A stretch of DNA of 64,000 nucleotides from Escherichia coli (GCF_050920415.1 NZ_CP169309.1), one strand, 5' to 3'. Shown: positions 12,802-50,526, counted from the stretch's first letter. Notes: generated by a model from the sequence alone, not told the origin. Program-made: numbers and translations.

Positions 12802-12877
12802 TACGTTAAAACGCACCTTATAACCAGTCTGGCACAGCGATGCAAGTTTTGCCGCCGCTTTCAGGCGGCAAAAAGTA

Positions 12878-13537
12878 TTACAAAACGCGAGTTGTCAAAG
12901 AATGTCCATCGAAAGTAACCGTCAGCTCATCACCGCTTTGCAAGGGGCCGACGCCATCAGGCGTGCCTGTCAGCACAACGTCACCGGCCTTGAGGGTAAA
13001 AAACTTGCTCATATAAGCGATCAGCGGAACGATTTTATGGATCATGTCCGCAGTCGTACCTTGCTGGCGTTGTTCGCCGTTGACGCTCAGGCCCAGCACT
13101 GTATTTTGCGGATCGCCGGTGAATTCCGCCGCTGGAATAAACCCGGATAGCGGACAAGAGTTATCAAACGCTTTGGCCTTTTCCCACGGCTGCCCGGCTT
13201 TCTTCATTTTTCCCTGAACATCACGCAATGTCAGATCGAGCGCCACGCCGTAACCGGCAATTGCTTTGCGGACATGCTCTTCCGTAGCCTGACGTAGCGT
13301 CGCGCCAATCAACACCGCTAGTTCGACTTCATGATGAACTGAACCGAAATCGGATGGGATCGCCAATGGCTGCCGCAGATCGCACAGTGCCGTCTCTGGT
13401 TTAATAAACAGCACTGGCTCTTCGGGCACTGCACTGCCCATCTCTTTAATATGTTTGGCATAGTTACTGCCAACACAGACTACTTTACTCACCGGATAAT
13501 CCAGCAGCGCACCTTGCCAGTTGTGATGTTGATACAT
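12878..13537 (-). CDS. ycgM: Fumarylacetoacetate-hydrolase-family protein YcgM
   Basis: ORF 12878..13594; start at internal ATG (MYQHHNWQG...) gives about 219 aa. Confidence 0.8.
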
Positions 13538-13607
13538 AACGTTCCCCTCACTTATCGTGGATATGAAAACCCGCGCCGACAAAGATAATGCCACCGCCGG
13601 ATATCGG

Positions 13608-13934
13608 TTATTTGTTAGTGTCGTCTGTTTTCTGCCCCATTATGGAAAGATGTTGCTTCAGCAAATCTTCGGGGGGTGGCGGTAACTGCAGATAGTAACC
13701 TTGCTCGGTTAATGCCAGTTTAACCTTCTCAATATCGGCATTGACCAATTTCTTCCGCCCATCCAGCGGCAGAATCATCGCTAACTGAGGCTGACCAAAA
13801 CCTTTCATCAGTTCCTCAGGAACACGCGAAAAATCGTCTTTTTTTTCGACATATAAATAGGTCTGGTCACGCTTGCTGCTTCGATAAATCACACAAAACA
13901 TACATTTACTCTTTAAAATGCCAGGTTTTGGCAT
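13608..13934 (-). CDS. ycgL: Small protein YcgL
   Basis: 108-aa ORF in conserved position. Confidence 0.75.
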
Positions 13935-14140
13935 AAGCTAACATCAATGAAACCCGCGCCACAAGCCAGCCAGCTGTAGATTTCTGCGGTTTGTTCAATC
14001 CATGCGCCCTTTATAAGTAATCCCCGGCAAGAATACCGCACCAGGATTTTACCGAATACAGGAAAGCCACTGGAATTCCCCCGTAAGGAATTGTTATATT
14101 ATAACAGTTCATCGTACTCATTCTGAACAGGAGACTACCT

Positions 14141-14542
14141 ATGAAAATCAAGAGCATCAGTAAGGGTGTATTGCTGCTTGCACTGCTAACCTCTACGAGC
14201 TTTGCTGCAGGTAAGAATGTCAATGTTGAGTTCAGAAAAGGTCATAGCAGCGCTCAGTACTCCGGCGAAATAAAGGGATATGATTACGATACATATACCT
14301 TCTATGCCAAAAAAGGCCAGAAAGTGCATGTGAGTATCTCTAATGAAGGCGCTGATACTTACCTCTTCGGACCAGGGATCGATGATTCTGTTGATTTATC
14401 CAGATATTCCCCAGAACTCGATAGTCACGGACAATACGCACTCCCAGCTTCTGGCAAATATGAGCTGCGTGTGCTGCAAACTCGAAATGACGCCCGTAAA
14501 AACAAAACTAAAAAATATAACGTTGATATTCAAATTAAGTAA
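14141..14542 (+). CDS. pliG: Periplasmic inhibitor of g-type lysozyme (YcgK/PliG)
   Basis: 133-aa ORF with signal peptide MKIKSISKGVLLLALLTSTSFA. Confidence 0.8.
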   Translation: MKIKSISKGVLLLALLTSTSFAAGKNVNVEFRKGHSSAQYSGEIKGYDYDTYTFYAKKGQKVHVSISNEGADTYLFGPGIDDSVDLSRYSPELDSHGQYALPASGKYELRVLQTRNDARKNKTKKYNVDIQIK

Positions 14543-14685
14543 ATGTCAATCGACGGGGACTCTCCCCGTCATAAACGTTATCGCCCCCACGCCTCTCTGT
14601 CGCTCAAGAGGTTAATGACGAATATAAAGAAGGCTATGCGACGACGAGCGGAAAATACAGAATAGAACATAATGTAAACAAGACA

Positions 14686-15054
14686 TCACTCACGACACAT
14701 AAATAACATCTTTGTGGTGGTTTGATTGATTTTCCCACTCCGCTGACCATCCATACCAAAATAACGATCATCACGACATAATTTTTCTTTAACATCGCAA
14801 AATACACCGTTAGAGAATGTAAATTGGCTGGGATCGTAGCCTTCTACTGATTGCAAGTTATCCGCAGCTTTTTCACCGAGATATTTCCTTGTTAACTCAG
14901 GGGAAATGCCATCTAAGTCAACACAAATATACGGGTCGCAAACAACGCCACACGCCGGCGATTGAAGTCCGCCGGCGTCATTTCCAGACGCCATTGATGA
15001 GAACATCATCCCCACACCTGACAATCCAATATAAAAAATACGCCTCATATTCAT
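14686..15054 (-). CDS. ycgJ: Secreted small protein YcgJ
   Basis: 122-aa ORF with N-terminal signal-like segment, Cys-rich. Confidence 0.75.
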   Translation of the reverse strand: MNMRRIFYIGLSGVGMMFSSMASGNDAGGLQSPACGVVCDPYICVDLDGISPELTRKYLGEKAADNLQSVEGYDPSQFTFSNGVFCDVKEKLCRDDRYFGMDGQRSGKINQTTTKMLFMCRE

Positions 15055-15573
15055 AGCACATCCTGAGAAACCAACCGTACAACACTTATGCTCATTTCAT
15101 CATCAACTCATAATCAAAACCGCTGACCTGGACGAGTTACGATGACCTGACAGAAGCATCAGACATCTTCTGCGGATTCTATGATAGAGCAATTCTTCAG
15201 CTGATATTAAGATAAAGGTGGCCGTCTTTTAATGGCGTTGAAAGAAATGGAAAGTTAAGAAAGCTTAGCGATGGTGAAAAAATATGCTTGCCTCAACACT
15301 GGATATTTAAACAGTTCTCATGAGATTGTCACGATTAGAGTGCAGAAAAAGGAAGGGTAATTAAGAACAATCAAAAGTACGACGGCAATAGGTTGATTGA
15401 CAAGGGTATTTTTTAAGCTATGAATCAGCGCCATTTATCACAGAATAGACTTTTACTCTGAATAAATGGGAGGGTGACTTGCCTCAATATAATCCAGACT
15501 ATAACATGCCTTATAGTCTTCGGAACATCATCGCGCGCTGGCGATGATTAATAGCTAATTGAGTAAGGCCAGG

Positions 15574-16269
15574 ATGTCAAACACGCCAATCGAGCTTAAA
15601 GGCAGTAGCTTCACTTTATCTGTGGTTCATCTGCATGAGGCAGAACCTAAGGTTATTCATCAGGCGCTGGAAGACAAAATCGCTCAGGCCCCCGCATTTT
15701 TAAAACATGCCCCTGTTGTACTCAACGTCAGTGCACTTGAAGACCCGGTAAACTGGTCAGCGATGCATAAGGCTGTTTCGGCAACCGGTTTGCGGGTTAT
15801 TGGCGTAAGTGGCTGCAAAGATGCGCAACTTAAAGCCGAAATTGAAAAGATGGGGCTGCCTATCCTGACGGAAGGAAAGGAAAAAGCGCCGCGTCCAGCT
15901 CCCGCACCGCAGGCTCCAGCGCAAAATACAACGTCGGTCACAAAAACGCGTTTAATAGATACCCCGGTGCGTTCCGGTCAGCGTATTTATGCTCCACAAT
16001 GTGATCTGATTGTTACAAGCCACGTTAGCGCTGGGGCCGAATTGATTGCCGATGGTAACATTCATGTTTATGGCATGATGCGCGGTCGTGCGCTGGCAGG
16101 GGCAAGTGGTGACCGGGAAACGCAAATATTTTGTACGAACCTGATGGCGGAACTGGTGTCCATCGCAGGTGAATACTGGCTGAGTGATCAAATCCCAGCA
16201 GAATTTTATGGCAAAGCAGCGCGACTACAGTTAGTCGAAAACGCTTTGACCGTTCAACCGTTAAATTGA
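15574..16269 (+). CDS. minC: Septum site-determining protein MinC
   Basis: [40 protein letters not shown]...; ATG 15574 with AAGG RBS. Confidence 0.95.
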
Positions 16270-16292
16270 TCCCTTTTTAACAAGGAATTTCT

Positions 16293-17105
16293 ATGGCACG
16301 CATTATTGTTGTTACTTCGGGCAAAGGGGGTGTTGGTAAGACAACCTCCAGCGCGGCCATCGCCACTGGTTTGGCCCAGAAGGGAAAGAAAACTGTCGTG
16401 ATAGATTTTGATATCGGCCTGCGTAATCTCGACCTGATTATGGGTTGTGAACGCCGGGTCGTTTACGATTTCGTCAACGTCATTCAGGGCGATGCAACGC
16501 TAAATCAGGCGTTAATTAAAGATAAGCGTACTGAAAATCTCTATATTCTTCCGGCATCGCAAACACGCGATAAAGATGCCCTTACCCGTGAAGGGGTCGC
16601 CAAAGTTCTTGATGATCTGAAAGCGATGGACTTTGAATTTATCGTTTGTGACTCCCCGGCAGGGATTGAAACCGGTGCGTTAATGGCACTCTATTTTGCA
16701 GACGAAGCCATTATTACCACCAACCCGGAAGTCTCCTCAGTACGCGACTCTGACCGTATTTTAGGCATTCTGGCGTCGAAATCACGCCGCGCAGAAAATG
16801 GCGAAGAGCCTATTAAAGAGCATCTGCTGTTAACGCGCTATAACCCAGGCCGCGTGAGCAGAGGTGACATGTTGAGCATGGAAGATGTGCTGGAGATCCT
16901 GCGCATCAAACTCGTCGGCGTGATTCCTGAGGATCAATCAGTATTGCGCGCCTCTAACCAGGGTGAACCGGTCATTCTCGACATTAACGCCGATGCGGGT
17001 AAAGCCTACGCAGATACCGTAGAACGTCTGTTGGGAGAAGAACGTCCTTTCCGCTTCATTGAAGAAGAGAAGAAAGGCTTCCTCAAACGCTTGTTCGGAG
17101 GATAA
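16293..17105 (+). CDS. minD: Septum site-determining ATPase MinD
   Basis: MARIIVVTSGKGGVGKTT Walker A; 270 aa. Confidence 0.95.
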   Translation: MARIIVVTSGKGGVGKTTSSAAIATGLAQKGKKTVVIDFDIGLRNLDLIMGCERRVVYDFVNVIQGDATLNQALIKDKRTENLYILPASQTRDKDALTREGVAKVLDDLKAMDFEFIVCDSPAGIETGALMALYFADEAIITTNPEVSSVRDSDRILGILASKSRRAENGEEPIKEHLLLTRYNPGRVSRGDMLSMEDVLEILRIKLVGVIPEDQSVLRASNQGEPVILDINADAGKAYADTVERLLGEERPFRFIEEEKKGFLKRLFGG

Positions 17106-17108
17106 GTT

Positions 17109-17375
17109 ATGGCATTACTCGATTTCTTTCTCTCGCGGAAGAAAAACACGGCCAACATTGCAAAAGAACGGCTGCAGATTATTGTTGCTGAACGCCGTCG
17201 CAGCGATGCTGAACCGCATTATCTACCGCAGTTGCGTAAAGATATTCTTGAGGTCATTTGTAAATACGTACAAATTGATCCTGAGATGGTAACCGTACAG
17301 CTTGAGCAAAAAGATGGCGATATTTCTATTCTTGAGCTGAACGTGACTTTACCGGAAGCTGAAGAGCTGAAATAA
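17109..17375 (+). CDS. minE: Cell division topological specificity factor MinE
   Basis: [31 protein letters not shown]...; 88 aa. Confidence 0.95.
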
Positions 17376-17401
17376 GCCCGCTGTAAAAGCGCATTTATCT
17401 T

Positions 17402-17746: not shown

Positions 17747-20700
17747 TCAGAACGACCAGTTCACACCAGCCACCGCGTTCCACGGGGATTCCACACTGGC
17801 ACCATGGCTATACCCCACCCCGAGATGCCCGCTTAACGAACTGCTGAATGAGGCTTTAATACCTGCCTGGTATATTCCACGTCTGCCCGACAAATCATTG
17901 ACAAAATTACCGTCATTATTCACTTTCACCCGGTTATCATCGACAAATTCTTTGCGCACAGCCGCCTTCAGCCACGGCTCTACTTCCATGCCGTTCCCCA
18001 GACGCATGTTGTAACTCAGCGTTGCGCCCAGTTCACGATATATACTGCGGGTATCGACTGATTTCGATTCCATACCATTGGATAAATGATATTCGGGGTT
18101 GTCAGCGGTTAACCCCGTTAACGATGCATACGGCGTCAGGTTCCAGTTACCATCGGTAAATCGCATCCCGGTTTCAATGTGACCGCCCAGCCCGTTGCTG
18201 CGATAACTGCCGTTGGCGGCTCCACCGCTGCTCATTTTACCGGCTACGTTACTTTCAAAGCGGTTCAGCTTCACGATACCGTCCAGATAGAAACCACTTT
18301 CATGTTCCCAGCTGACATAGCCCCCCAGAGAATAACTGCCCACACTGCCATGTCCTCCACGATCAAAACCGATATGTGAATGGGAATAACCCATAAAAGC
18401 GCCCAGCGTCGCAATCCCCTCAGGAATATCATTACGGCTATCGATCCCCACCGTCATTCCGGTCAGCGTCTGCTCAAACCCGGCACCCGCATCGGTGGTG
18501 ACATTATTACGGGTGTTATACGTCGTCCCCCAGACATTATTGTTGTGTGGACTCGCTTTCATTATGTTCAACCGCTCGCGAATACTGTTTAGCTCAGCAT
18601 CAAAGACCAACGGTAATGTTGCTGCCATATTGAGTACGGCTGCCGTAGAAGGCGTGATGCGTTTCTCCGGGACGGGTGTCGGCGTTGGATCGGGAGTCGG
18701 GTCTGGTTTCGGATCCGGTTTTGGGTCTGGTTTTGGATCCGGTTTCGGATTTGGGTTGGGGTCCGGGTTGGGTTTGACATCATTGGTCAGGTTCCAGTTG
18801 CTGTTGCCGTCGCTTTTCAGGACATACTCATAGGTCCCAAGATCAACGAAACCGCCGGTATTACCCAGCGTAAACGAAGCATCCCCTCCCCCTGTTTTCA
18901 CCAGCGTCATCGCGTCGTCAGACTGAGGGCTGACGCCGGTATCCTGAACAAAGATTTTAAAATTGCCAGTGGCGTTGTTGTTGACGACCAGTTGATCGCC
19001 CCGGGAGCCTGCAACGTTGGTATGCAGGTAGAAATTACCGCTGCCGGAAAGTTCACTGGTGGTCAGCGTATTGTAGATACCGTTAGTTGTGGCAGGCGCT
19101 GCTGTTTGTGCTGATAAATAAACATCACCGTCGTTGAGGAGCAAACTGTTTACTCTATATTCGCAGTTGCTGGTGCCTGCACAGGAATTATTGCTGTTAA
19201 GCCAGACACTGCCCCGGCTGGCAGCCGTCAGGTCGGCAAGCGTCGTATCGACGCCATTTCCGATAGTTAATGTCGCGCTATCGGTAATCCGGACCACCCC
19301 TTCAAGTTTAACTGGCGTAACATTATCCCGTGGCGTCATTAACGACAGGCTTCCTGTCGCGCCACTGACCGATGCATCCGCCAGCGTACCTGCGTAGACG
19401 ATTGCCGTCCCGCCAGCGACCTGTAGATCTTCTGCCCGGGCCAGAGCCTGAAACTCATCTTTTGACCGACCAAGGGTATATTGCCCACCGGAATTAACCT
19501 TTGTGGCGAAGTCCTGACCCAGGTTTTGCATTGCCCCACCGTTGCCAACCGTGGAATCGCGAGCTTCGGTACCTGCTAATACCAATAAATTACCGCCATT
19601 TTCCAGCAGCACATTGGTCGCTAAATTTCCGGCAATGGAAAAGGTGCCGTACTGGTGAGTACCGCTGATTTCAATACCGTTAGCCGTGCTCGTCTGGAGA
19701 GCGGCACCGCTGTTCTGGATGATATCTGTCGCTTTGCCATTATCGTTGACTGTCAGCGTACCGCCTTCATTAATCGTTGTTTTTACTGCCTCACCGTTAG
19801 CCGAAACTGTTTGTATTCCGCCGTCGTTAATCGTTGTCTCAGTCGCCACACCCTCGACGATTTGTTCACCGCCGGTAAGCATCGTGCCAGTCGCAGTGGC
19901 TTTTGTTTTGACGATCTCCCGTCCGCCCGCATTGACCTGTGTTTTGGCGGAAGTGGTGTCTGACTCCACGGTTAACACGCCGCCATTTGCCAGCAGGATA
20001 TTGTTCGCCGCATCCTGCTCGATGCTGAACGCGACGCCATCAGCGCGTGTCCCTGTGACCCGCGTCGCCCTGGTGGTTGCCACCAACGCGCCCTGGCTAC
20101 TCTGCTGTATCCCCGTAGCGCTGCCTTTCTCCCGCACATCGAGTGTGCCGCCGTCATTAAGTACCGAGTTTTCAGCCAGACCGCCCTCATTAACTACCTG
20201 TGAACCGCCATTAATAATGGAACCTTCCGTTGTCCCGTTTGCCATAATTTGTTGTAGGCCAGAGACGATATCGGTATTGATCGCCTTACCATAATTCTGA
20301 ACGGTTTGCGTGCCGCCTTTGATGTGCGTTTTATCTGTTGACCCACCATCAACAATTTGTTCACCACTTTCGATATTTGCCTCAGTGGCTAAACCATATA
20401 CCGTTTGCTTGCCACCTTTGATATTTGCTTTATCAGAAGTGGCACTGGCATATATTGTTTGGGTGCCCGCACTATTGAGTACAGTGCCAACATCTTTTCC
20501 ATAAACATCCATTTTGCCGTTGGCATTAATAATCGTATCAACTGCCCGGGAACCAGTAACGACTGTTAATGAGCCAGCGTTTTCCAGCACTACATTTTTA
20601 GCTTCTGAATTCCTGATGTAGAAAGCATCACCATAACTGTTGGTTCCTTCGATAAGTGTTCCGGAAGTCGTGGAAGCAATTAATGCGCCGCCGGATTGTT

Positions 20701-22438
20701 GCTCAACATGCTTAGCCTCACCACCGTCCTGAACCTCCAGAACGCCACCATTATTAAGTCTGGTGGTATCTGTTTTAGCCTCCTTCTGGACAATCAGCTT
20801 ACCGCCAGCATCAACGGTAGTATTTTTCGCCGTGGTTTTAGCCACTACCGTCAGTTCGCCGGTATTTTCCAGCACAACATAATTAGCCTCCCCTCCGGTA
20901 ATAGTGAAGTGAGAGAGCTTGTTGTATCCTTCAATATCAGTCCCTGCGCCCGTGTTGGCAACTAAAGCACTGCCCGTCTCCTGGTTAACCCCATGTGCGA
21001 TACCACCGGTATAGACAATCAGCGAGCCTCCGGCGCTAATATTGCTGCCAGTTGCCGTACCATCTTTCTCAACAACCTGCCGGCTCCCGGAGGAGATATT
21101 TGTCGTGTCAGCTTTCCCGCCGCTCTTGATATTTTGTGTTCCGCTGTTGATATTGGTTCCCGTGGCAATACCATGATTATTAATATTCTGTGTGCCACCA
21201 TTAATTATGGTATTTGTCGCGTTTCCGGCAACATCCATAACCCCGCCATTATCTATTCGGGTCGCATCAGCTTTAGCATTCGTTAAAACTGACATTGTTC
21301 CTTTATCTTTAATAACCGTCTTGTTTGCCGAACCATATGCGTTTATGTCTAAATGGCCACCGTTTTCCAGCAACACATTGTCTGCCACGTGATTGTGGAT
21401 GGAGAATGCCCCTTCACTATTCGTACCGCTCACCGTCGACCTGTCAGTCATTGCTTTTAAAGCCGCGCCATCGTGCTGGGTAACATTCGTTGCCGTACCC
21501 TCTCTAACATCAAGCACGCCACCGGAATATATTTCAATAACATTCGAGGTGCTCCTGCTATCAACAATTTGCGTCCCACCAGAATAGATCGTGGTAGTGT
21601 GCGCCGTTGACGTGTTTTGCAGCGTCTGCATTCCTCCATTTTTAATGGTGGTTATTTGTGCAGTGCTTGAATCAACATCCTGTCGACCACCATCTATTGT
21701 GGTGTCCAGCGCATGGCTCTTAATTGTTCTTTGGTCACCTCCATTTTTAATGATAGTGTTTTCTACAATACTCGAATCTACATACTGTCGGCCCCCATCT
21801 ATTGTTGTGTTCGTTGCCAGACTTCCTTGTGTGATGTTCTGAGAACCAGATGTATTTATCGTCGTACCGTCAACATGCCCCTGAGCTGTTACTGTTTGTT
21901 TACCACCATCAATGACAGTCCCGTTTGCTCTCCCTCCTTCGACGTATGAATTACCATTCTTAATTATCGTGCCATTGCTGGTACCATCCTTATAAATGTA
22001 CTGATTGCCACTCTCGATTAACGTGCCATTGCTGGTACCACCGTTATAAACTTGCTGATTGCCACTCGCGATTATCGTACCGCTAGAATTCCCACCATTA
22101 TAAATTACCTGTGTACCCCCATGAAGGATTGTATTATTAGCTTGCCCCTGATAATTGTTATGGTTTGCTACATCTTGTTGTCCACCCATTTCAATAATAC
22201 TTCCATTAGACACCCCACCAAATACAGTCTGGTGGCCGTGATTAATGATATGAGTATCATTAGTTGTCCCCCGTTCATCTACTATTTGCTCGCCATCCAC
22301 AGTTTCACCATTTACGATACCAGTAACGATTGATGTGAAAGCAGCCTCTCCAGGCTGGGCATATATCAAGGCAGATATCAATAAGGAAAGTACTGAACGG
22401 CGAAAATAATAGCGACTGGTCCTGTTCATAAATTTCAT
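17747..22438 (-). CDS. AIDA-I-type autotransporter adhesin: beta-helix repeat passenger, Pro-rich linker, C-terminal beta-barrel
   Basis: ORF 17747..22558; likely start at MKFMNRTSRYYFRRSVLSLLISALIYA (22438 or 22429) with GAGG RBS. Dozens of GGxQxV/NGT repeats, PNPDPNPNPKPDPKPDPKPDP linker, C-terminus ending ...NWSF typical of autotransporter barrels. Confidence 0.85.
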   Translation of the reverse strand: MKFMNRTSRYYFRRSVLSLLISALIYAQPGEAAFTSIVTGIVNGETVDGEQIVDERGTTNDTHIINHGHQTVFGGVSNGSIIEMGGQQDVANHNNYQGQANNTILHGGTQVIYNGGNSSGTIIASGNQQVYNGGTSNGTLIESGNQYIYKDGTSNGTIIKNGNSYVEGGRANGTVIDGGKQTVTAQGHVDGTTINTSGSQNITQGSLATNTTIDGGRQYVDSSIVENTIIKNGGDQRTIKSHALDTTIDGGRQDVDSSTAQITTIKNGGMQTLQNTSTAHTTTIYSGGTQIVDSRSTSNVIEIYSGGVLDVREGTATNVTQHDGAALKAMTDRSTVSGTNSEGAFSIHNHVADNVLLENGGHLDINAYGSANKTVIKDKGTMSVLTNAKADATRIDNGGVMDVAGNATNTIINGGTQNINNHGIATGTNINSGTQNIKSGGKADTTNISSGSRQVVEKDGTATGSNISAGGSLIVYTGGIAHGVNQETGSALVANTGAGTDIEGYNKLSHFTITGGEANYVVLENTGELTVVAKTTAKNTTVDAGGKLIVQKEAKTDTTRLNNGGVLEVQDGGEAKHVEQQSGGALIASTTSGTLIEGTNSYGDAFYIRNSEAKNVVLENAGSLTVVTGSRAVDTIINANGKMDVYGKDVGTVLNSAGTQTIYASATSDKANIKGGKQTVYGLATEANIESGEQIVDGGSTDKTHIKGGTQTVQNYGKAINTDIVSGLQQIMANGTTEGSIINGGSQVVNEGGLAENSVLNDGGTLDVREKGSATGIQQSSQGALVATTRATRVTGTRADGVAFSIEQDAANNILLANGGVLTVESDTTSAKTQVNAGGREIVKTKATATGTMLTGGEQIVEGVATETTINDGGIQTVSANGEAVKTTINEGGTLTVNDNGKATDIIQNSGAALQTSTANGIEISGTHQYGTFSIAGNLATNVLLENGGNLLVLAGTEARDSTVGNGGAMQNLGQDFATKVNSGGQYTLGRSKDEFQALARAEDLQVAGGTAIVYAGTLADASVSGATGSLSLMTPRDNVTPVKLEGVVRITDSATLTIGNGVDTTLADLTAASRGSVWLNSNNSCAGTSNCEYRVNSLLLNDGDVYLSAQTAAPATTNGIYNTLTTSELSGSGNFYLHTNVAGSRGDQLVVNNNATGNFKIFVQDTGVSPQSDDAMTLVKTGGGDASFTLGNTGGFVDLGTYEYVLKSDGNSNWNLTNDVKPNPDPNPNPKPDPKPDPKPDPKPDPTPDPTPTPVPEKRITPSTAAVLNMAATLPLVFDAELNSIRERLNIMKASPHNNNVWGTTYNTRNNVTTDAGAGFEQTLTGMTVGIDSRNDIPEGIATLGAFMGYSHSHIGFDRGGHGSVGSYSLGGYVSWEHESGFYLDGIVKLNRFESNVAGKMSSGGAANGSYRSNGLGGHIETGMRFTDGNWNLTPYASLTGLTADNPEYHLSNGMESKSVDTRSIYRELGATLSYNMRLGNGMEVEPWLKAAVRKEFVDDNRVKVNNDGNFVNDLSGRRGIYQAGIKASFSSSLSGHLGVGYSHGASVESPWNAVAGVNWSF
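18668..18779 (-). repeat. Tandem short coding repeat for the (PDPK/PNPD)n linker of the autotransporter
   Basis: Periodic GGATCCGGTTT/GGGTCTGGTTT units on the plus strand. Confidence 0.8.
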
Positions 22439-23032
22439 CCTCTGAAAAGTGAATACTGAGTAGCGGGTAAGCGACCTTAGCTCTGCTGCAACATCGGCCC
22501 ACAGGCACCAGACCAGGGGATTCATCCTTAAGAGACAGCGCAAGTGTATTGTGTTCACCGCTCATCAAAGACATCATGATGAAATGATGATATTCCGCAT
22601 AAGAAAGAGGCATTTTTAGACGCATCGCGCTGAAGTGTGGTTGAATAAAAATCAATCTTTTCAGATAAGACTGTCGTACTCTTATTTTGCGGAAATAAGG
22701 CCGTCGGCAAAGTAAAATGACTCACATAATTGTTTCTGATGAATATCTTCTACTCACATGAATATTACACAATAATATTGATGCATCAGATTATCTTACC
22801 TTTACAACATCACGTTAACAGCCAATGACACTTCTTGAATAAAAATATTGTCAATCAAAGAGTTATTTTTTATTTAAGATTATTCTCATTCAAGTAAAAG
22901 ACATAATTCCTATCATCACAGCCACGCTCATTTTGAATTATCTGAATAATAGCGAGCGTTCTTTAGTTAAGCAGGTCTTAATTGAAGACGAAATTATTGT
23001 GTGTGCAACTTACTTAATACCGGACATCTAAG

Positions 23033-23730: not shown

Positions 23731-23760
23731 CCGCGTCGATTGATTCGACGCGGTGGTTGT
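23731..23760 (+). terminator. Hairpin downstream of ymgD
   Basis: CCGCGTCGA-TTGAT-TCGACGCGG stem-loop followed by a T-rich tract. Confidence 0.5.
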
Positions 23761-23891
23761 ATATAGTTCTACAATGAAACATCACACCCGCCAATACGCC
23801 CTCACAACAACAAGCAAAGCAATTTAATCGGCATTAAACCACAAGTACAACAATACTTATTACTATATAGCGGCTATAGCATAAAGAAAGA

Positions 23892-32793: not shown

Positions 32794-34269
32794 TCAAGAA
32801 CGCCAAAAAAATCCTGAAAATAGTATAATAACAGGGTAAATTTCAAGTCGACCAAGAATCATAGCAATACACATGAGATATTTTGCAATATCATTAAGAA
32901 CACCGAATGAGGATGCGGTAGCCCCAAAACCCAGCCCCATATTATTAATGCATGCAGCGACTGTCGCAAATGATGTAAGGAAATCATATCCCATACCATT
33001 TAGCACCAGTATAAAAAACACTGTAAAGAAAGTATAAAGAAAAAAGAAACTCCATACAGACCTCATTACGCGGTCTGTAACAATCTTCCCTCCTACATTT
33101 ACACTAAGCAATGCTCTGGGATGAGAAAGCTGATTTATTTCGTGTTTACTTTGTTTAAAAAGTATAAGAAATCTAAGTGATTTAATTCCGCCGCACGTTG
33201 AGCCTATACATCCCCCAAAAAAACTTGACAGCAGCAAAAAAACTATCGTATGTGTGGGCCAGTTTGAATAATCCTGCGTAGCTAAACCATTATCAGTGAG
33301 CATGGAGCTAGCAAGAAAAAACGAATGAACAACACTTCCAGTTAAGTCATACATACCTATATGCCAGACCTGGAAAGAGGTAACAATGATAACACCTGAA
33401 GCTATTAACAAAAAGAAACGAAGTTCAACATCTCTGAGTAAGGGTTTTATTGTTTTCCTGCTTATAACAACATACCAAAGAGTGAAGTTGAAAGCCGATA
33501 ACAGAGAAAAAGAGCCCGCCACCAGTTCAATCAAATAATTATTGAAATAGCCGATACTCTCACTATGAGTTGAAAAACCGCCAAGAGAAACTGTAGAAAG
33601 TCCATGACAAATAGCATCAAACAAAGGCATTCCTGCAAGTCGATAACAAACAATACAAGCAATGCCTAATAAAGAATAAGTTATCCAAAGTGTCCGCGAC
33701 GTATCAGCCAAGCGTGGAGTCAGTTTGTCATCCTTAAATGGCCCTGGCATTTCTGACTGATAAAGTTTTGCACCACCAATACCCAATAATGGCAACACAG
33801 CAACTGCCAGAACAATAACCCCTAAACCGCCTATAAAATTTAATTGTGACCGGTAGAACAAATATGCCCGAGATAATGAACTGACATCATCAATTACTGT
33901 TGCTCCTGTTGTTGTTATTCCGGAAACCCCTTCAAACAGCGCGTCAGCAAACGTTAAATTAAGCTCTGAATCAATCCATAATGGAAATGCGCTAATAATA
34001 GAAAATAAAATCCAAAACATTACAATTATAATAAACCCATCACGGGTGCGTAATTGAATGCCAGATTTTTTAGTGGTATACCACGCTCCGCCACCAATAC
34101 AAAAAAATATAACAAAAGTAATAAAAAAAACGAACAAGCTTTTTTCTTTATAAAACAATGCTACAACCATTGGTGGTAACATTGAAAGACTATAGAGCCA
34201 GACCAAGAACCCACACATATGAGTTACAACTCTTACATGAGATGTATTCATATCCAAATGTTCTTTCAA
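32794..34269 (-). CDS. TrkH/TrkG-family potassium uptake membrane protein
   Basis: 491 aa, polytopic, with repeated selectivity-filter-like GxGxxxGG segments (GGLGVIVLAV..., STCGGIKS...). Confidence 0.75.
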   Translation of the reverse strand: MKEHLDMNTSHVRVVTHMCGFLVWLYSLSMLPPMVVALFYKEKSLFVFFITFVIFFCIGGGAWYTTKKSGIQLRTRDGFIIIVMFWILFSIISAFPLWIDSELNLTFADALFEGVSGITTTGATVIDDVSSLSRAYLFYRSQLNFIGGLGVIVLAVAVLPLLGIGGAKLYQSEMPGPFKDDKLTPRLADTSRTLWITYSLLGIACIVCYRLAGMPLFDAICHGLSTVSLGGFSTHSESIGYFNNYLIELVAGSFSLLSAFNFTLWYVVISRKTIKPLLRDVELRFFLLIASGVIIVTSFQVWHIGMYDLTGSVVHSFFLASSMLTDNGLATQDYSNWPTHTIVFLLLSSFFGGCIGSTCGGIKSLRFLILFKQSKHEINQLSHPRALLSVNVGGKIVTDRVMRSVWSFFFLYTFFTVFFILVLNGMGYDFLTSFATVAACINNMGLGFGATASSFGVLNDIAKYLMCIAMILGRLEIYPVIILFSGFFWRS

Positions 34270-35204
34270 TTATAACCACCTTACTGCAATGTCATGATTA
34301 TACTGTATAAATTTTAACTCTTCTTAGATCTTACTTCACTGGTCCTTATGAAACAATCAGCAAAATGAATCTTATTATAACACTGTTCGGTTATGTATTG
34401 TTGAGCCTTCCCGCTGGGCCTGCATCATTACAAGTCGCTCCCTATGGGGCTTTGTCGAATAAATAATTTTTCGGTAAGTATCCCCCTGAGCAGGTTGTAT
34501 CTTCAGGCAGTATGAACACTTTCTGGCATACCTACCTTCGTCATTATGTTCAGCGTATGCACCATGACCAAAGCCTCTGCAACCGGCCTATCATAATCTA
34601 GCAGCATCAGAGAACCTCAGAATAACTGTTTTACCCTGTTCATTGCCGTTTCCGCTATTGAGCGACGATTGTAATCTTTTGTCCATTTTCACCGGGAATT
34701 ACCCTCGGTCAATCGCTGATACGCGACTGCACAGTTACGGTCGGCATACTCACCGGGCCAGTAACCCGCTCCTTTTTGGGGTGGGATGAGCGCGCTGATT
34801 TTCACACGGCGCAGCTGCTCGTAACAGAGCCGAGAGGCGTAAACTCCGTCTGCTGCTGTCCTGATTTTTTGATGGGTTTGCCGGATTAATCCGGCTACAC
34901 CTCTACATCCGTTACGCTGAATGCTGAGGTCGCCCTTGGGAAGAAGGCATTGCTGACTTATACCAATCCGAAATCACCTCCTCGAGCAACCAGACAGGGA
35001 GGGGCCTCGGTTGATAAGAGCTCTGTTATTGATGTGCCAGTTGGTGATTCTAACTTTTGCTTTGTAACGGGACGAGCCGTGTTGGCAGATGATGTGTGGT
35101 CTGATCCTTAAACTCAGTAAAAGTACGATTTATTCAAAAAAGCCCCTCCACTATGATTTCGATTTAAGGGGCTGATGATTATGTAACGCGAATTTACCGG
35201 ATCC

Positions 35205-36590
<1,386 letters not shown>

Positions 36591-49953: not shown

Positions 49954-50526
49954 TTAGCAAATGCCAAACGCTCGAATTGAAGCCAAGTCATCCAGATTAT
50001 TCAGTTGTTCCTTCATCTCCCGCTGGCGTTCGTGGATTTTAAATCCCTCCGCCACCATGGCCACCATCATGGCATCGTTCAGCGCAATAAGTTTCTCCCT
50101 GGTCAGTACGACGTTGTTATTATCCGCATCAGTCCAGAAAAAACCCTCCGGAAGCAGTCCGGCCTGTGCTGCTGCAACCACGGGGGCAAGGCGTGACTGC
50201 GAGGTTTTTCCGCCATCAAAACGACGGCCATCAAACGTGAAAATAAACTCAACGTTTTCCTGACTGTCGCGCCATGCCTCAATTTCCCGCCTTTTGGCAT
50301 CCTTTGCCGCTGCAATAAGTTCCGGCGTGACGGTGAACGGGGCGATTTCGCCCCATTTCCCGCTTTGCAGCTCCTGCCAGATGTGCTGGCCTGTCGGGGC
50401 CATATCATCCTGTATGGCAGTATACAGGGCGAACTCCGTTTCACCTTCAAATAACACCTCGCAGTCAACCGCACCATTTTCAAGATAATGTGCGTTTCTG
50501 ATACCTTTCACCGCTCTGATTTTCAT
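49954..50526 (-). CDS. Putative tail fiber assembly/chaperone-like protein (positional call)
   Basis: ORF 49954..50541 directly downstream of and overlapping the tail fiber gene; not recognisably lambda Tfa. Confidence 0.45.
   Translation of the reverse strand: MKIRAVKGIRNAHYLENGAVDCEVLFEGETEFALYTAIQDDMAPTGQHIWQELQSGKWGEIAPFTVTPELIAAAKDAKRREIEAWRDSQENVEFIFTFDGRRFDGGKTSQSRLAPVVAAAQAGLLPEGFFWTDADNNNVVLTREKLIALNDAMMVAMVAEGFKIHERQREMKEQLNNLDDLASIRAFGIC

What the first reader, a model, noticed from the sequence alone, without database searches (positions are those of the whole stretch)
17747..22438. Intact AIDA-type autotransporter of about 1560 aa between minE and ymgG, with a slippage-prone Pro-Asp-Lys linker repeat
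By recall, K-12 carries only autotransporter pseudogene remnants in the minE-ymgG-ymgD-pdeG interval; here one large ORF is uninterrupted, with signal peptide, beta-helix repeats, a PNPDPNPNPKPDPKPDPKPDP linker encoded by short tandem DNA repeats (18668..18779), and a beta-barrel. The linker repeat is a potential site of length variation.
Basis: partly seen in the sequence, partly recalled or inferred. Interest (0 to 1): 0.45.

Follow-up and report, generated by a model that had tools for sequence, protein, structure and literature searches.

The report
Intact ancestor of K-12 ycgI autotransporter
This is a complete surface-adhesin (autotransporter) gene at a spot where ordinary E. coli keeps only a 344-base stump; it survives only in the rare "cryptic clade I" lineage, is a sister copy of the known ypjA/ehaD gene, and is otherwise an ordinary member of a well-known protein family.

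Summary
One uninterrupted minus-strand ORF (17747..22438, 1563 aa; likely start 22429, 1560 aa) lies between minE and ymgG. It has a signal peptide, an AIDA-repeat beta-helix, a pertactin-type autochaperone, a 35-aa Pro-X linker and a C-terminal barrel.

It is the intact orthologue of the K-12 pseudogene ycgI. K-12/BL21 carry a clean 4367-bp deletion of 18092..22458, and 4533 of 5426 complete genomes share that junction.

The full-length gene occurs in 18 of 5426 genomes. These are exactly the 18 that carry the published cryptic-clade-I marker gene, which also lies in this window. Sixteen of the 18 copies are intact.

The gene is a paralogue of ypjA/ehaD, which clade I also keeps. The first ~380 codons are locus-specific (80% nt identity to ypjA). 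The remaining 3.55 kb is 99-99.7% identical between the two loci, which indicates gene conversion.

The linker has the same length in all 18 orthologues. Across ypjA alleles it varies in 6-bp steps, so it is not a phase switch.

Adhesion/biofilm function is inferred from YpjA/EhaD and was not tested. Verdict: a new member of a known kind, of modest interest.

The parts
17747..22438 (-). Complete autotransporter CDS. It is 1563 aa from the ATG at 22438; the probable true start is the ATG at 22429 (1560 aa). The stop codon is 17747-17749.
   Evidence: ORF list; PGAP CDS in the identical record NZ_CP169399.1; no internal stops.
22340..22438 (-). Sec signal peptide, aa 1 to about 33: MKFMNRTSRYYFRRSVLSLLISALIYAQPGEAA.
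   Evidence: A basic n-region, a hydrophobic core with Kyte-Doolittle peak 2.5 at aa 16-26, and an A-x-A-like end. AlphaFold2 gives a helix at aa 16-25 with low pLDDT before aa 31. SignalP was not run.
21299..22339 (-). Locus-specific N-terminal head of the passenger, aa 34-380, a beta-helix.
   Evidence: It is 99-100% identical among the min-locus copies but only 80-81% identical to any ypjA. Identity of 99% or more is found only in the 18 clade-I genomes. AlphaFold2 pLDDT is 88 and the model is all-beta. The best Foldseek matches are Ag43 (7KOH, 4KH3) and TibA (4Q1Q).
21963..22078 (-). 54-bp (18-aa, one beta-helix rung) tandem duplication inside the head.
   Evidence: Tandem Repeats Finder: period 54, 2.1 copies, score 183. 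One 54-bp unit is absent from both ypjA alleles compared.
18785..21298 (-). Shared beta-helix stalk, aa 381-1218. It carries the AIDA repeats and ends in the pertactin-type autochaperone (aa 1096-1218, window 18785..19153).
   Evidence: Pfam AIDA and Pertactin hits; PDB sequence matches to Ag43, TibA and pertactin.
18668..18775 (-). Pro-X dipeptide linker, aa 1222-1257, encoded by imperfect 6/12/24-bp repeats.
   Evidence: Tandem Repeats Finder. Length is invariant in 18 orthologues. Across ypjA alleles it varies by -18, 0, +6, +12 or +30 bp.
17750..18667 (-). Translocator: the linker helix plus the 12-strand beta-barrel. PF03797 covers aa 1302-1541 (window 17816..18535). The protein ends ...GVNWSF.
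   Evidence: Pfam; TIGR01414; PDB sequence matches to the Vag8 and BrkA barrels; C-terminal Phe.
18092..22458 (.). The 4367-bp segment that is deleted in E. coli sensu stricto (K-12/BL21 type).
   Evidence: blastn of the window against BL21: both breakpoints map to L001 position 6691. The junction is found in 4533 of 5426 genomes. The endpoints share only 1 nt of microhomology.
17747..18091 (-). The part that survives in K-12 as the pseudogene ycgI (last 344 bp of the barrel).
   Evidence: 95.6% identity to the BL21 ycgI.
22439..22810 (-). A+T-rich upstream region, homologous to the region upstream of ypjA. It presumably holds the promoter.
   Evidence: Homology with ypjA ends near 22810. The whole 22439..23032 intergenic region is 36.9% G+C. 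One sigma-70-like site at 22818..22790 is no more than chance would give.
17775..21300 (-). Tract homogenised with the ypjA copy of the same lineage (gene-conversion tract; boundaries approximate).
   Evidence: Identity between the two loci within clade I is 98.9-99.7%, against 96% to K-12 ypjA. Only 6 synonymous codon differences occur in 1183 codons, against 72 in the 380 head codons. The sliding comparison shows the transition.

Best explanation
**What it is.** This is the intact orthologue of the K-12 pseudogene ycgI, retained in Escherichia cryptic clade I. It is a classical (type Va) autotransporter of the AIDA-I/Ag43/TibA beta-helix class and a paralogue of ypjA/ehaD.

**Mechanism (inferred from the family).**
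- The signal peptide takes the protein through Sec.
- The C-terminal barrel is inserted in the outer membrane by BAM.
- The passenger is threaded out, and its folding is nucleated by the pertactin-type autochaperone.
- The result is a roughly 1200-residue beta-helix held away from the barrel by a rigid Pro-X spacer.
- The likely role is surface adhesion or biofilm formation, as reported for over-expressed YpjA/EhaD.

**Evolution (shown here).**
- The gene predates the split between clade I and E. coli sensu stricto.
- E. coli sensu stricto lost it through one 4367-bp deletion.
- Clade I keeps both this gene and ypjA.
- The two loci share a stalk, linker and barrel kept nearly identical by gene conversion.
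- Each locus keeps its own N-terminal head of about 350 residues.
For: **Architecture.**

**Orthology with ycgI.** The deletion in BL21 is precise, and both flanks are collinear with the window. The upstream 400 bp is locus-specific: the window is 89.7% identical to the BL21 min locus but about 85% to ypjA upstream.

**Paralogy with ypjA.**
- 89% aa identity over the full length.
- ypjA is present at its own locus in the same genome and in 16 of the 18 genomes listed.
- It is intact in the two other clade-I strains examined.

**Lineage.**
- The full-length locus occurs in 18 of 5426 genomes.
- The same 18 genomes rank top for flanking housekeeping DNA.
- The same 18 carry the published clade-I marker gene, whose PCR primers match this window exactly.
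- EC42405 and 2013C-4282 are named clade-I strains in PMC10100065.

**Intactness.** 16 of 18 copies are intact.

**Gene conversion.**

**Function of relatives.** YpjA/EhaD is linked to adhesion and biofilm in PMC3796261, PMC4076661 and PMC9289746.
Against: - No expression, secretion or adhesion data exist for this gene.
- Two of the 18 orthologues are disrupted: a 43-bp deletion in EC42405, and a +2 insertion in a C-run in 24A16CRGN010 that may be a sequencing error. The gene is therefore dispensable in at least one strain.
- No outgroup species could be examined. "Ancestral" therefore rests only on the K-12-type remnant.
- The conversion tract was inferred from identity patterns in three clade-I genomes, not from a formal recombination test.
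Confidence: 0.82

Rival explanations
1. The gene is intact but silent and decaying. It would be an H-NS-silenced cryptic adhesin under little selection that merely has not yet been lost in clade I.
For: - Two of the 18 copies are disrupted.
- The upstream region is 36.9% G+C.
- No promoter match stands above chance.
- E. coli sensu stricto lost the gene without apparent cost.
- From general knowledge of Roux et al. 2005, cited in PMC3796261: K-12 ypjA gives phenotypes only when over-expressed.
Against: - Sixteen of 18 copies from four continents keep a 4.7-kb frame open.
- One protein, WP_250777696.1, is identical in seven genomes.
- The head is 99% or more conserved.
- Differences between orthologues are few, so dN/dS is uninformative.
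Confidence: 0.25
2. Re-creation rather than retention. The common ancestor would already have had the K-12-type deletion. Clade I would then have rebuilt a full gene by recombination with a foreign ypjA-type allele, using the homologous 344-bp stump and upstream region as arms.
For: - Both flanks of the deletion are homologous to ypjA flanks.
- Gene conversion between the loci evidently occurs.
- ypjA heads are themselves diverse (85-98%).
- Three ypjA alleles have a head 90.7% identical to this one.
Against: - No ypjA allele in 5426 genomes carries this head at more than 90.7% identity.
- This account needs two events (deletion, then repair) where one suffices.
- The deletion junction is absent from all 18 clade-I genomes.
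Confidence: 0.08
3. The Pro-X linker repeat is a contingency (slippage) locus that rapidly varies protein length or expression.
For: - The DNA is an imperfect tandem repeat.
- Five length classes are seen among ypjA-family alleles.
Against: - The linker is an identical 105 bp in all 18 orthologues and in 3 clade-I ypjA copies; only three point substitutions were seen.
- All variants differ by multiples of 6 bp, so the frame is never lost.
- The units are imperfect, which suppresses slippage.
Confidence: 0.03
4. Assembly artefact: a chimera of ypjA reads laid over the ycgI stump.
For: The source assembly has many annotated frameshifts, which suggests homopolymer errors.
Against: - The same structure appears in 18 independent assemblies.
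- The head sequence exists nowhere at the ypjA locus.
- ypjA is separately assembled in the same genomes.
Confidence: 0.01

Closest known systems
YpjA / EhaD (E. coli b2647; EHEC EhaD)
   Same: - Same architecture and length class.
- 89% aa identity over the full length.
- About 96% nt identity over the last 3.55 kb to K-12 ypjA, and 99% or more to clade-I ypjA.
- The upstream 370 bp is homologous.
- Same linker type.
   Different: - Different chromosomal locus: minE-ymgG rather than next to the ssrA island and ileY, about 1.75 Mb away.
- The N-terminal ~350 residues are only about 80% identical at nt level, with 54-bp rung indels.
- PGAP does not give it the YpjA/EhaD name.
ycgI pseudogene of E. 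coli K-12
   Same: Same locus and orientation. ycgI is the last 344 bp of this gene, and the upstream flank is collinear.
   Different: ycgI lacks 4367 bp: the start codon, the whole passenger, the linker and most of the barrel.
Self-associating autotransporters Ag43, TibA and AIDA-I
   Same: - Beta-helix passenger of about 19-residue AIDA/strand-loop-strand repeats (TIGR04415: 7 stretches).
- Best sequence and fold matches in the PDB.
- Pertactin-type autochaperone and PF03797 barrel.
   Different: - Scores are far below the equivalog cut-offs: Ag43 333 against 1200, AIDA-I 277 against 1200.
- No heptosyltransferase gene (aah/tibC type) is annotated in the window.
- Self-association has not been tested.
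YcgH (autotransporter pseudogene between ymgD and ymgF in K-12/BL21)
   Different: An unrelated gene at a different position. It is absent from this window without trace: there is no blastn match, and 131 unrelated bp lie at 23755..23885.

Membership tests
Classical (type Va) autotransporter | N-terminal Sec signal peptide | tested here: met
   Sequence inspection and hydropathy; AlphaFold2 helix at aa 16-25 followed by an ordered passenger from aa 34. No dedicated predictor was run.
Classical (type Va) autotransporter | C-terminal 12-strand beta-barrel translocator ending in an aromatic residue | tested here: met
   PF03797 E 4.6e-46; TIGR01414 324 bits against a cut-off of 16; Vag8/BrkA barrel matches; terminal Phe.
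Classical (type Va) autotransporter | Single polypeptide with the passenger between signal peptide and barrel; autochaperone before the linker | tested here: met
   One ORF; Pertactin PF03212 at aa 1096-1218, E 2e-45.
Classical (type Va) autotransporter | Passenger is actually exported to the cell surface | not testable with these tools
   Needs expression plus protease-shaving or immunofluorescence.
AIDA-I-type / SAAT beta-helix adhesins | Right-handed beta-helix built of AIDA (about 19-aa) repeats | tested here: met
   At least 8 significant PF16168 hits and TIGR04415. The AlphaFold2 model of aa 1-450 is all-beta with pLDDT 88. Foldseek probability is 1.0 to Ag43 and TibA.
AIDA-I-type / SAAT beta-helix adhesins | Cell-cell self-association (aggregation) | not testable with these tools
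   Needs a settling or aggregation assay.
AIDA-I-type / SAAT beta-helix adhesins | Dedicated heptosyltransferase (Aah/TibC) encoded next to the adhesin | tested here: not met
   The neighbours are minE and ymgG. No glycosyltransferase is annotated anywhere in the 64-kb window. The rest of the genome was not searched.
AIDA-I or Ag43 proper (NCBIfam equivalogs) | Score above the curated cut-off of NF033176 or NF033177 | tested here: not met
   277 and 333 bits against cut-offs of 1200.
YpjA/EhaD orthologue | Located at the ypjA locus (between the ssrA island and pinH'-ypjCB-ileY) | tested here: not met
   The gene lies between minE and ymgG. The genome has a separate ypjA at the canonical locus.
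YpjA/EhaD orthologue | Near-identity along the whole protein, including the N-terminal passenger | tested here: not met
   The head is 80-81% identical at nt level to all ypjA alleles compared. The best of 5426 genomes reaches 90.7%.
ycgI orthologue (intact form) | Same flanks, and collinear with both sides of the K-12 deletion | tested here: met
Simple-sequence contingency locus | Repeat number differs among close relatives and can shift the reading frame | tested here: not met
   The linker is 105 bp in all 18 orthologues. Family-wide variants are all multiples of 6 bp.

The most novel reading that the evidence does not exclude
Clade I maintains a two-locus, modular adhesin pair. One stalk-linker-barrel cassette is kept identical at two sites 1.75 Mb apart by recurrent gene conversion, while each site preserves a different N-terminal head and therefore, presumably, a different binding specificity. 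The min-locus copy would also be a second perfectly clade-I-diagnostic locus, one that pangenome screens merging paralogues could not see.
Probability: 0.45. Interest if true: 0.45.

Novelty: new member of a known kind. Interest (0 to 1): 0.3.

Why it matters
**The K-12 pseudogene.** The result gives ycgI a full-length ancestor. It dates the loss of that gene to a single deletion shared by most E. coli sensu stricto.

**Clade-I typing.** The gene adds a surface adhesin to the few features that separate cryptic clade I from E. coli proper; clade I is a reported emerging source of STEC/ETEC-type pathogens (PMC10100065). In complete genomes the head sequence (window 21400..22438) is as specific as the published clade-I PCR marker, 18/18 against 0/5408.

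**Adhesin evolution.** The pattern of a homogenised stalk and barrel with distinct heads is a tidy natural example of modular adhesin evolution.

None of this changes how autotransporters are understood.

Tried and rejected
**Outgroup searches that failed.**
- The search for homologous proteins with the head and with the full protein returned only fragments shorter than 1300 aa, with no context.
- Looking up contigs that encode the identical MinE gave ten K-12-type contexts only.
- Exact look-up of three orthologue proteins found none in the collection.

The ancestral state in other Escherichia species is therefore untested.

**A reciprocal-loss idea, rejected.** I considered that the strain's own ypjA was a true pseudogene, so that one paralogue survived at each locus in different lineages. 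I rejected this for three reasons:
- The two frameshifts are single-base losses in G5/G6 runs.
- The assembly has many annotated frameshifts.
- ypjA is intact in two other clade-I strains.

**Other negatives.**
- The 6-bp length difference between the window and the other orthologues lies at about 21343..21348, not in the linker.
- The promoter scan gave nothing above chance.
- A literature search for an intact ycgI found nothing.

Full report
**1. Observation**

The window holds one long minus-strand ORF, 17747..22558 mechanically. The ATG at 22438 gives 1563 aa. The next ATG, at 22429, lies 9 nt after a GAGG, matches the YpjA start, and is the start PGAP uses (1560 aa, WP_332832721.1, "AIDA repeat-containing protein").

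The window is 100% identical to E. coli MFDS1022581, NZ_CP169399.1.

The domain order is as follows:
- signal peptide, aa 1 to about 33;
- AIDA repeats, aa ~68-985;
- Pertactin-type autochaperone, aa 1096-1218;
- Pro-rich linker, aa 1222-1257;
- PF03797 barrel, aa 1302-1541, with a terminal Phe.

Tandem Repeats Finder confirms the repeat nature of the linker DNA at 18685..18773.

**2. Relation to K-12**

Aligning the window to BL21(DE3) shows two changes.
- Window 18092..22458 (4367 bp) is missing. Both edges map to one BL21 position, which leaves the last 344 bp of the barrel. That remnant is the annotated pseudogene ycgI.
- BL21 has 3060 bp containing the frameshifted ycgH between ymgD and ymgF. 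The window has 131 unrelated bp there (23755..23885).

The deletion endpoints share only 1 nt. A 301-bp probe across the BL21 junction matches with at least 80% cover in 4533 of 5426 complete genomes. The deletion is therefore a single old event inherited by most E. coli sensu stricto, and the rest show further erosion. The small ORFs ymgI and ymgJ lie in the retained upstream region, not in the deleted part.

**3. Which lineage keeps the gene**

The full-length locus occurs in 18 of 5426 genomes. Three independent results tie these 18 to cryptic clade I.
- They rank as the top 18 for the neighbouring housekeeping DNA, window 11000..17400 (97.1-100%, against 96.8% or less for all others).
- Two of them, EC42405 and 2013C-4282, are named cryptic clade I strains in Okuno et al. 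2023 (PMC10100065).
- That paper's clade-I-specific PCR primers both match this window exactly, at 35238..35257 and 35618..35637. They lie inside a 1368-bp hypothetical gene at 35205..36572. That gene is present in exactly the same 18 genomes.

The window therefore comes from cryptic clade I. In complete genomes, the intact gene and clade I coincide 18/18 against 0/5408.

Sixteen of the 18 copies are annotated intact. EC42405 has a 43-bp deletion near 20090. 24A16CRGN010 has two extra C in a C-run near 18385.

**4. Paralogy with ypjA/ehaD**

Apart from the 18 clade-I genomes, the best match elsewhere for the gene is ypjA (82-90% cover, 93-95% nt). Against K-12 YpjA the protein is 89% identical end to end. 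Homology runs from about 17775 to about 22810, so it includes roughly 370 bp upstream.

The source genome has its own ypjA at the canonical place (ileY-ypjCB-pinH'-ypjA-ssrA prophage). That copy carries two single-base losses in G5/G6 runs. These are probably sequencing errors, because the assembly has many annotated frameshifts. ypjA is intact in clade-I strains 2013C-4282 and R32_14_1F, and 16 of the 18 genomes list it.

**5. Mosaic pattern**

| Region | Min-locus copies vs each other | Min-locus vs ypjA | Source |
|---|---|---|---|
| Head, first 1.14 kb (22438..21300) | 99-100% | 80-81% to every ypjA | |
| Remaining 3.55 kb | 98.9-99.7% (all clade-I copies of both loci) | 96% to K-12 ypjA | |
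| Upstream 400 bp | 89.7% (window vs BL21 min locus) | about 85% | |

Additional observations on these regions:
- ypjA heads are 85-98% identical among themselves.
- Between the paralogues, the 380 head codons show 72 synonymous and 87 non-synonymous codon differences. The other 1183 codons show 6 and 8.
- Such a drop in synonymous change cannot be explained by purifying selection.
- Because the upstream region is locus-specific, the duplication predates the split between clade I and E. coli.
- The near-identity of the tail therefore indicates gene conversion, or a very recent replacement, within clade I.
- The head is found at 99% or more only in the 18 genomes. Three ypjA alleles reach 90.7%, and the rest are at 83% or less.
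- Length differences between the paralogues are 54- or 51-bp units, that is, whole beta-helix rungs, at about 22074, 21704 and 21651. One of these matches the 54-bp tandem repeat at 21963..22078.

**6. The linker**

All 18 orthologues and three clade-I ypjA copies have a 105-bp linker, and only three single substitutions were seen. K-12 ypjA has 111 bp.

In 60 evenly spaced records out of 2525, the span matching a 341-bp query fell into five classes:

| Span (bp) | Rows |
|---|---|
| 341 | 19 |
| 347 | 30 |
| 353 | 8 |
| 323 | 1 |
| 371 | 1 |

The linker is thus a slowly evolving, in-frame length polymorphism, not a switch.

**7. Structure and mechanism**

An AlphaFold2 model of aa 1-450, built from a 9-sequence alignment, has pLDDT 88 and is all-beta from aa 34. 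Foldseek's best matches are the Ag43 and TibA beta-helices (E 1e-14 to 4e-11). Sequence matches to solved structures are Ag43, TibA and an AidA-I family adhesin for the passenger, pertactin for the autochaperone, and Vag8/BrkA for the barrel.

The protein is below the NCBIfam cut-offs for Ag43 and AIDA-I. No heptosyltransferase gene is annotated in the window.

The secretion route (Sec, BAM, passenger threading, autochaperone-nucleated folding) is inferred from the family. A role in adhesion or biofilm is inferred from reports on YpjA/EhaD (PMC3796261, PMC4076661, PMC9289746). Nothing about expression is known. The upstream region is 36.9% G+C, and no promoter match exceeds chance.

**8. Limits**

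No outgroup species could be examined. "Ancestral" therefore rests on the K-12 remnant and on parsimony. Rebuilding of a deleted locus by recombination with a foreign ypjA allele is not excluded. I rate it unlikely, because no such head exists among 5426 genomes.

**9. Verdict**

The locus is a new, unnamed member of a well-known family, with a clear lineage distribution and a clear example of concerted evolution between paralogues. It is of modest interest.

Noticed in passing
window 35205..36572 (minus strand); primers at 35238..35257 and 35618..35637: The 1368-bp gene published as the only cryptic-clade-I-specific marker (PMC10100065) lies in this window, about 13 kb from the autotransporter. 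Both PCR primers match exactly. The gene occurs in exactly the same 18 of 5426 genomes. It sits with trkG (32794..34251) and a transposase remnant (34503..34892) between iraM and icd.
   Followed up: yes
window 23755..23885: The ycgH autotransporter pseudogene, a 3.06-kb stretch between ymgD and ymgF in BL21/K-12, is absent without trace. It is replaced by 131 bp with no similarity to it. Whether this reflects an insertion in E. coli or a deletion in clade I is unknown.
   Followed up: partly
L015 18764..23435 (NZ_CP169399.1 1173764..1178435): The strain's own ypjA is annotated as two pseudogene pieces. The only defects are single-base losses in a G5 and a G6 run. Many phage genes in this assembly are also annotated as frameshifted, so these are probably homopolymer sequencing errors.
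   Followed up: partly
H261-H263 (ypjA of strains OkiPb01695, PapM-32-1, PapRG-04-4): Three E. coli sensu stricto ypjA alleles carry an N-terminal head 90.7% identical to the min-locus head; all other alleles are at 83% or less. This may be a mosaic or intermediate allele produced by exchange between the two loci.
   Followed up: no
window 11222..12133: hlyE (haemolysin E) is intact here, whereas it is frameshifted in BL21.
   Followed up: no
window ~49954..64000; IS2 at 54461..55689: A lambdoid prophage tail module lies next to potB. Its host-specificity J gene is split by IS2, and several genes are annotated as frameshifted.
   Followed up: no
L013 (JAIJJM010000485.1, Collinsella sp. MAG): A 2.5-kb contig binned as Collinsella encodes an autotransporter passenger 76% identical to this protein. 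It is most likely mis-binned enterobacterial DNA.
   Followed up: no
window 90..1499: A 470-aa hypothetical protein (WP_001363897.1) lies next to dadX. It was not examined.
   Followed up: no
window ~21343..21348: The window's copy has 6 extra bp (GACATAAACGCA against GACGTA) relative to the 8 other min-locus orthologues aligned and to its own ypjA (all 17 others share the shorter CDS length), but it matches K-12 ypjA. A cluster of SNPs lies around the site, which suggests a small patch of exchange.
   Followed up: partly
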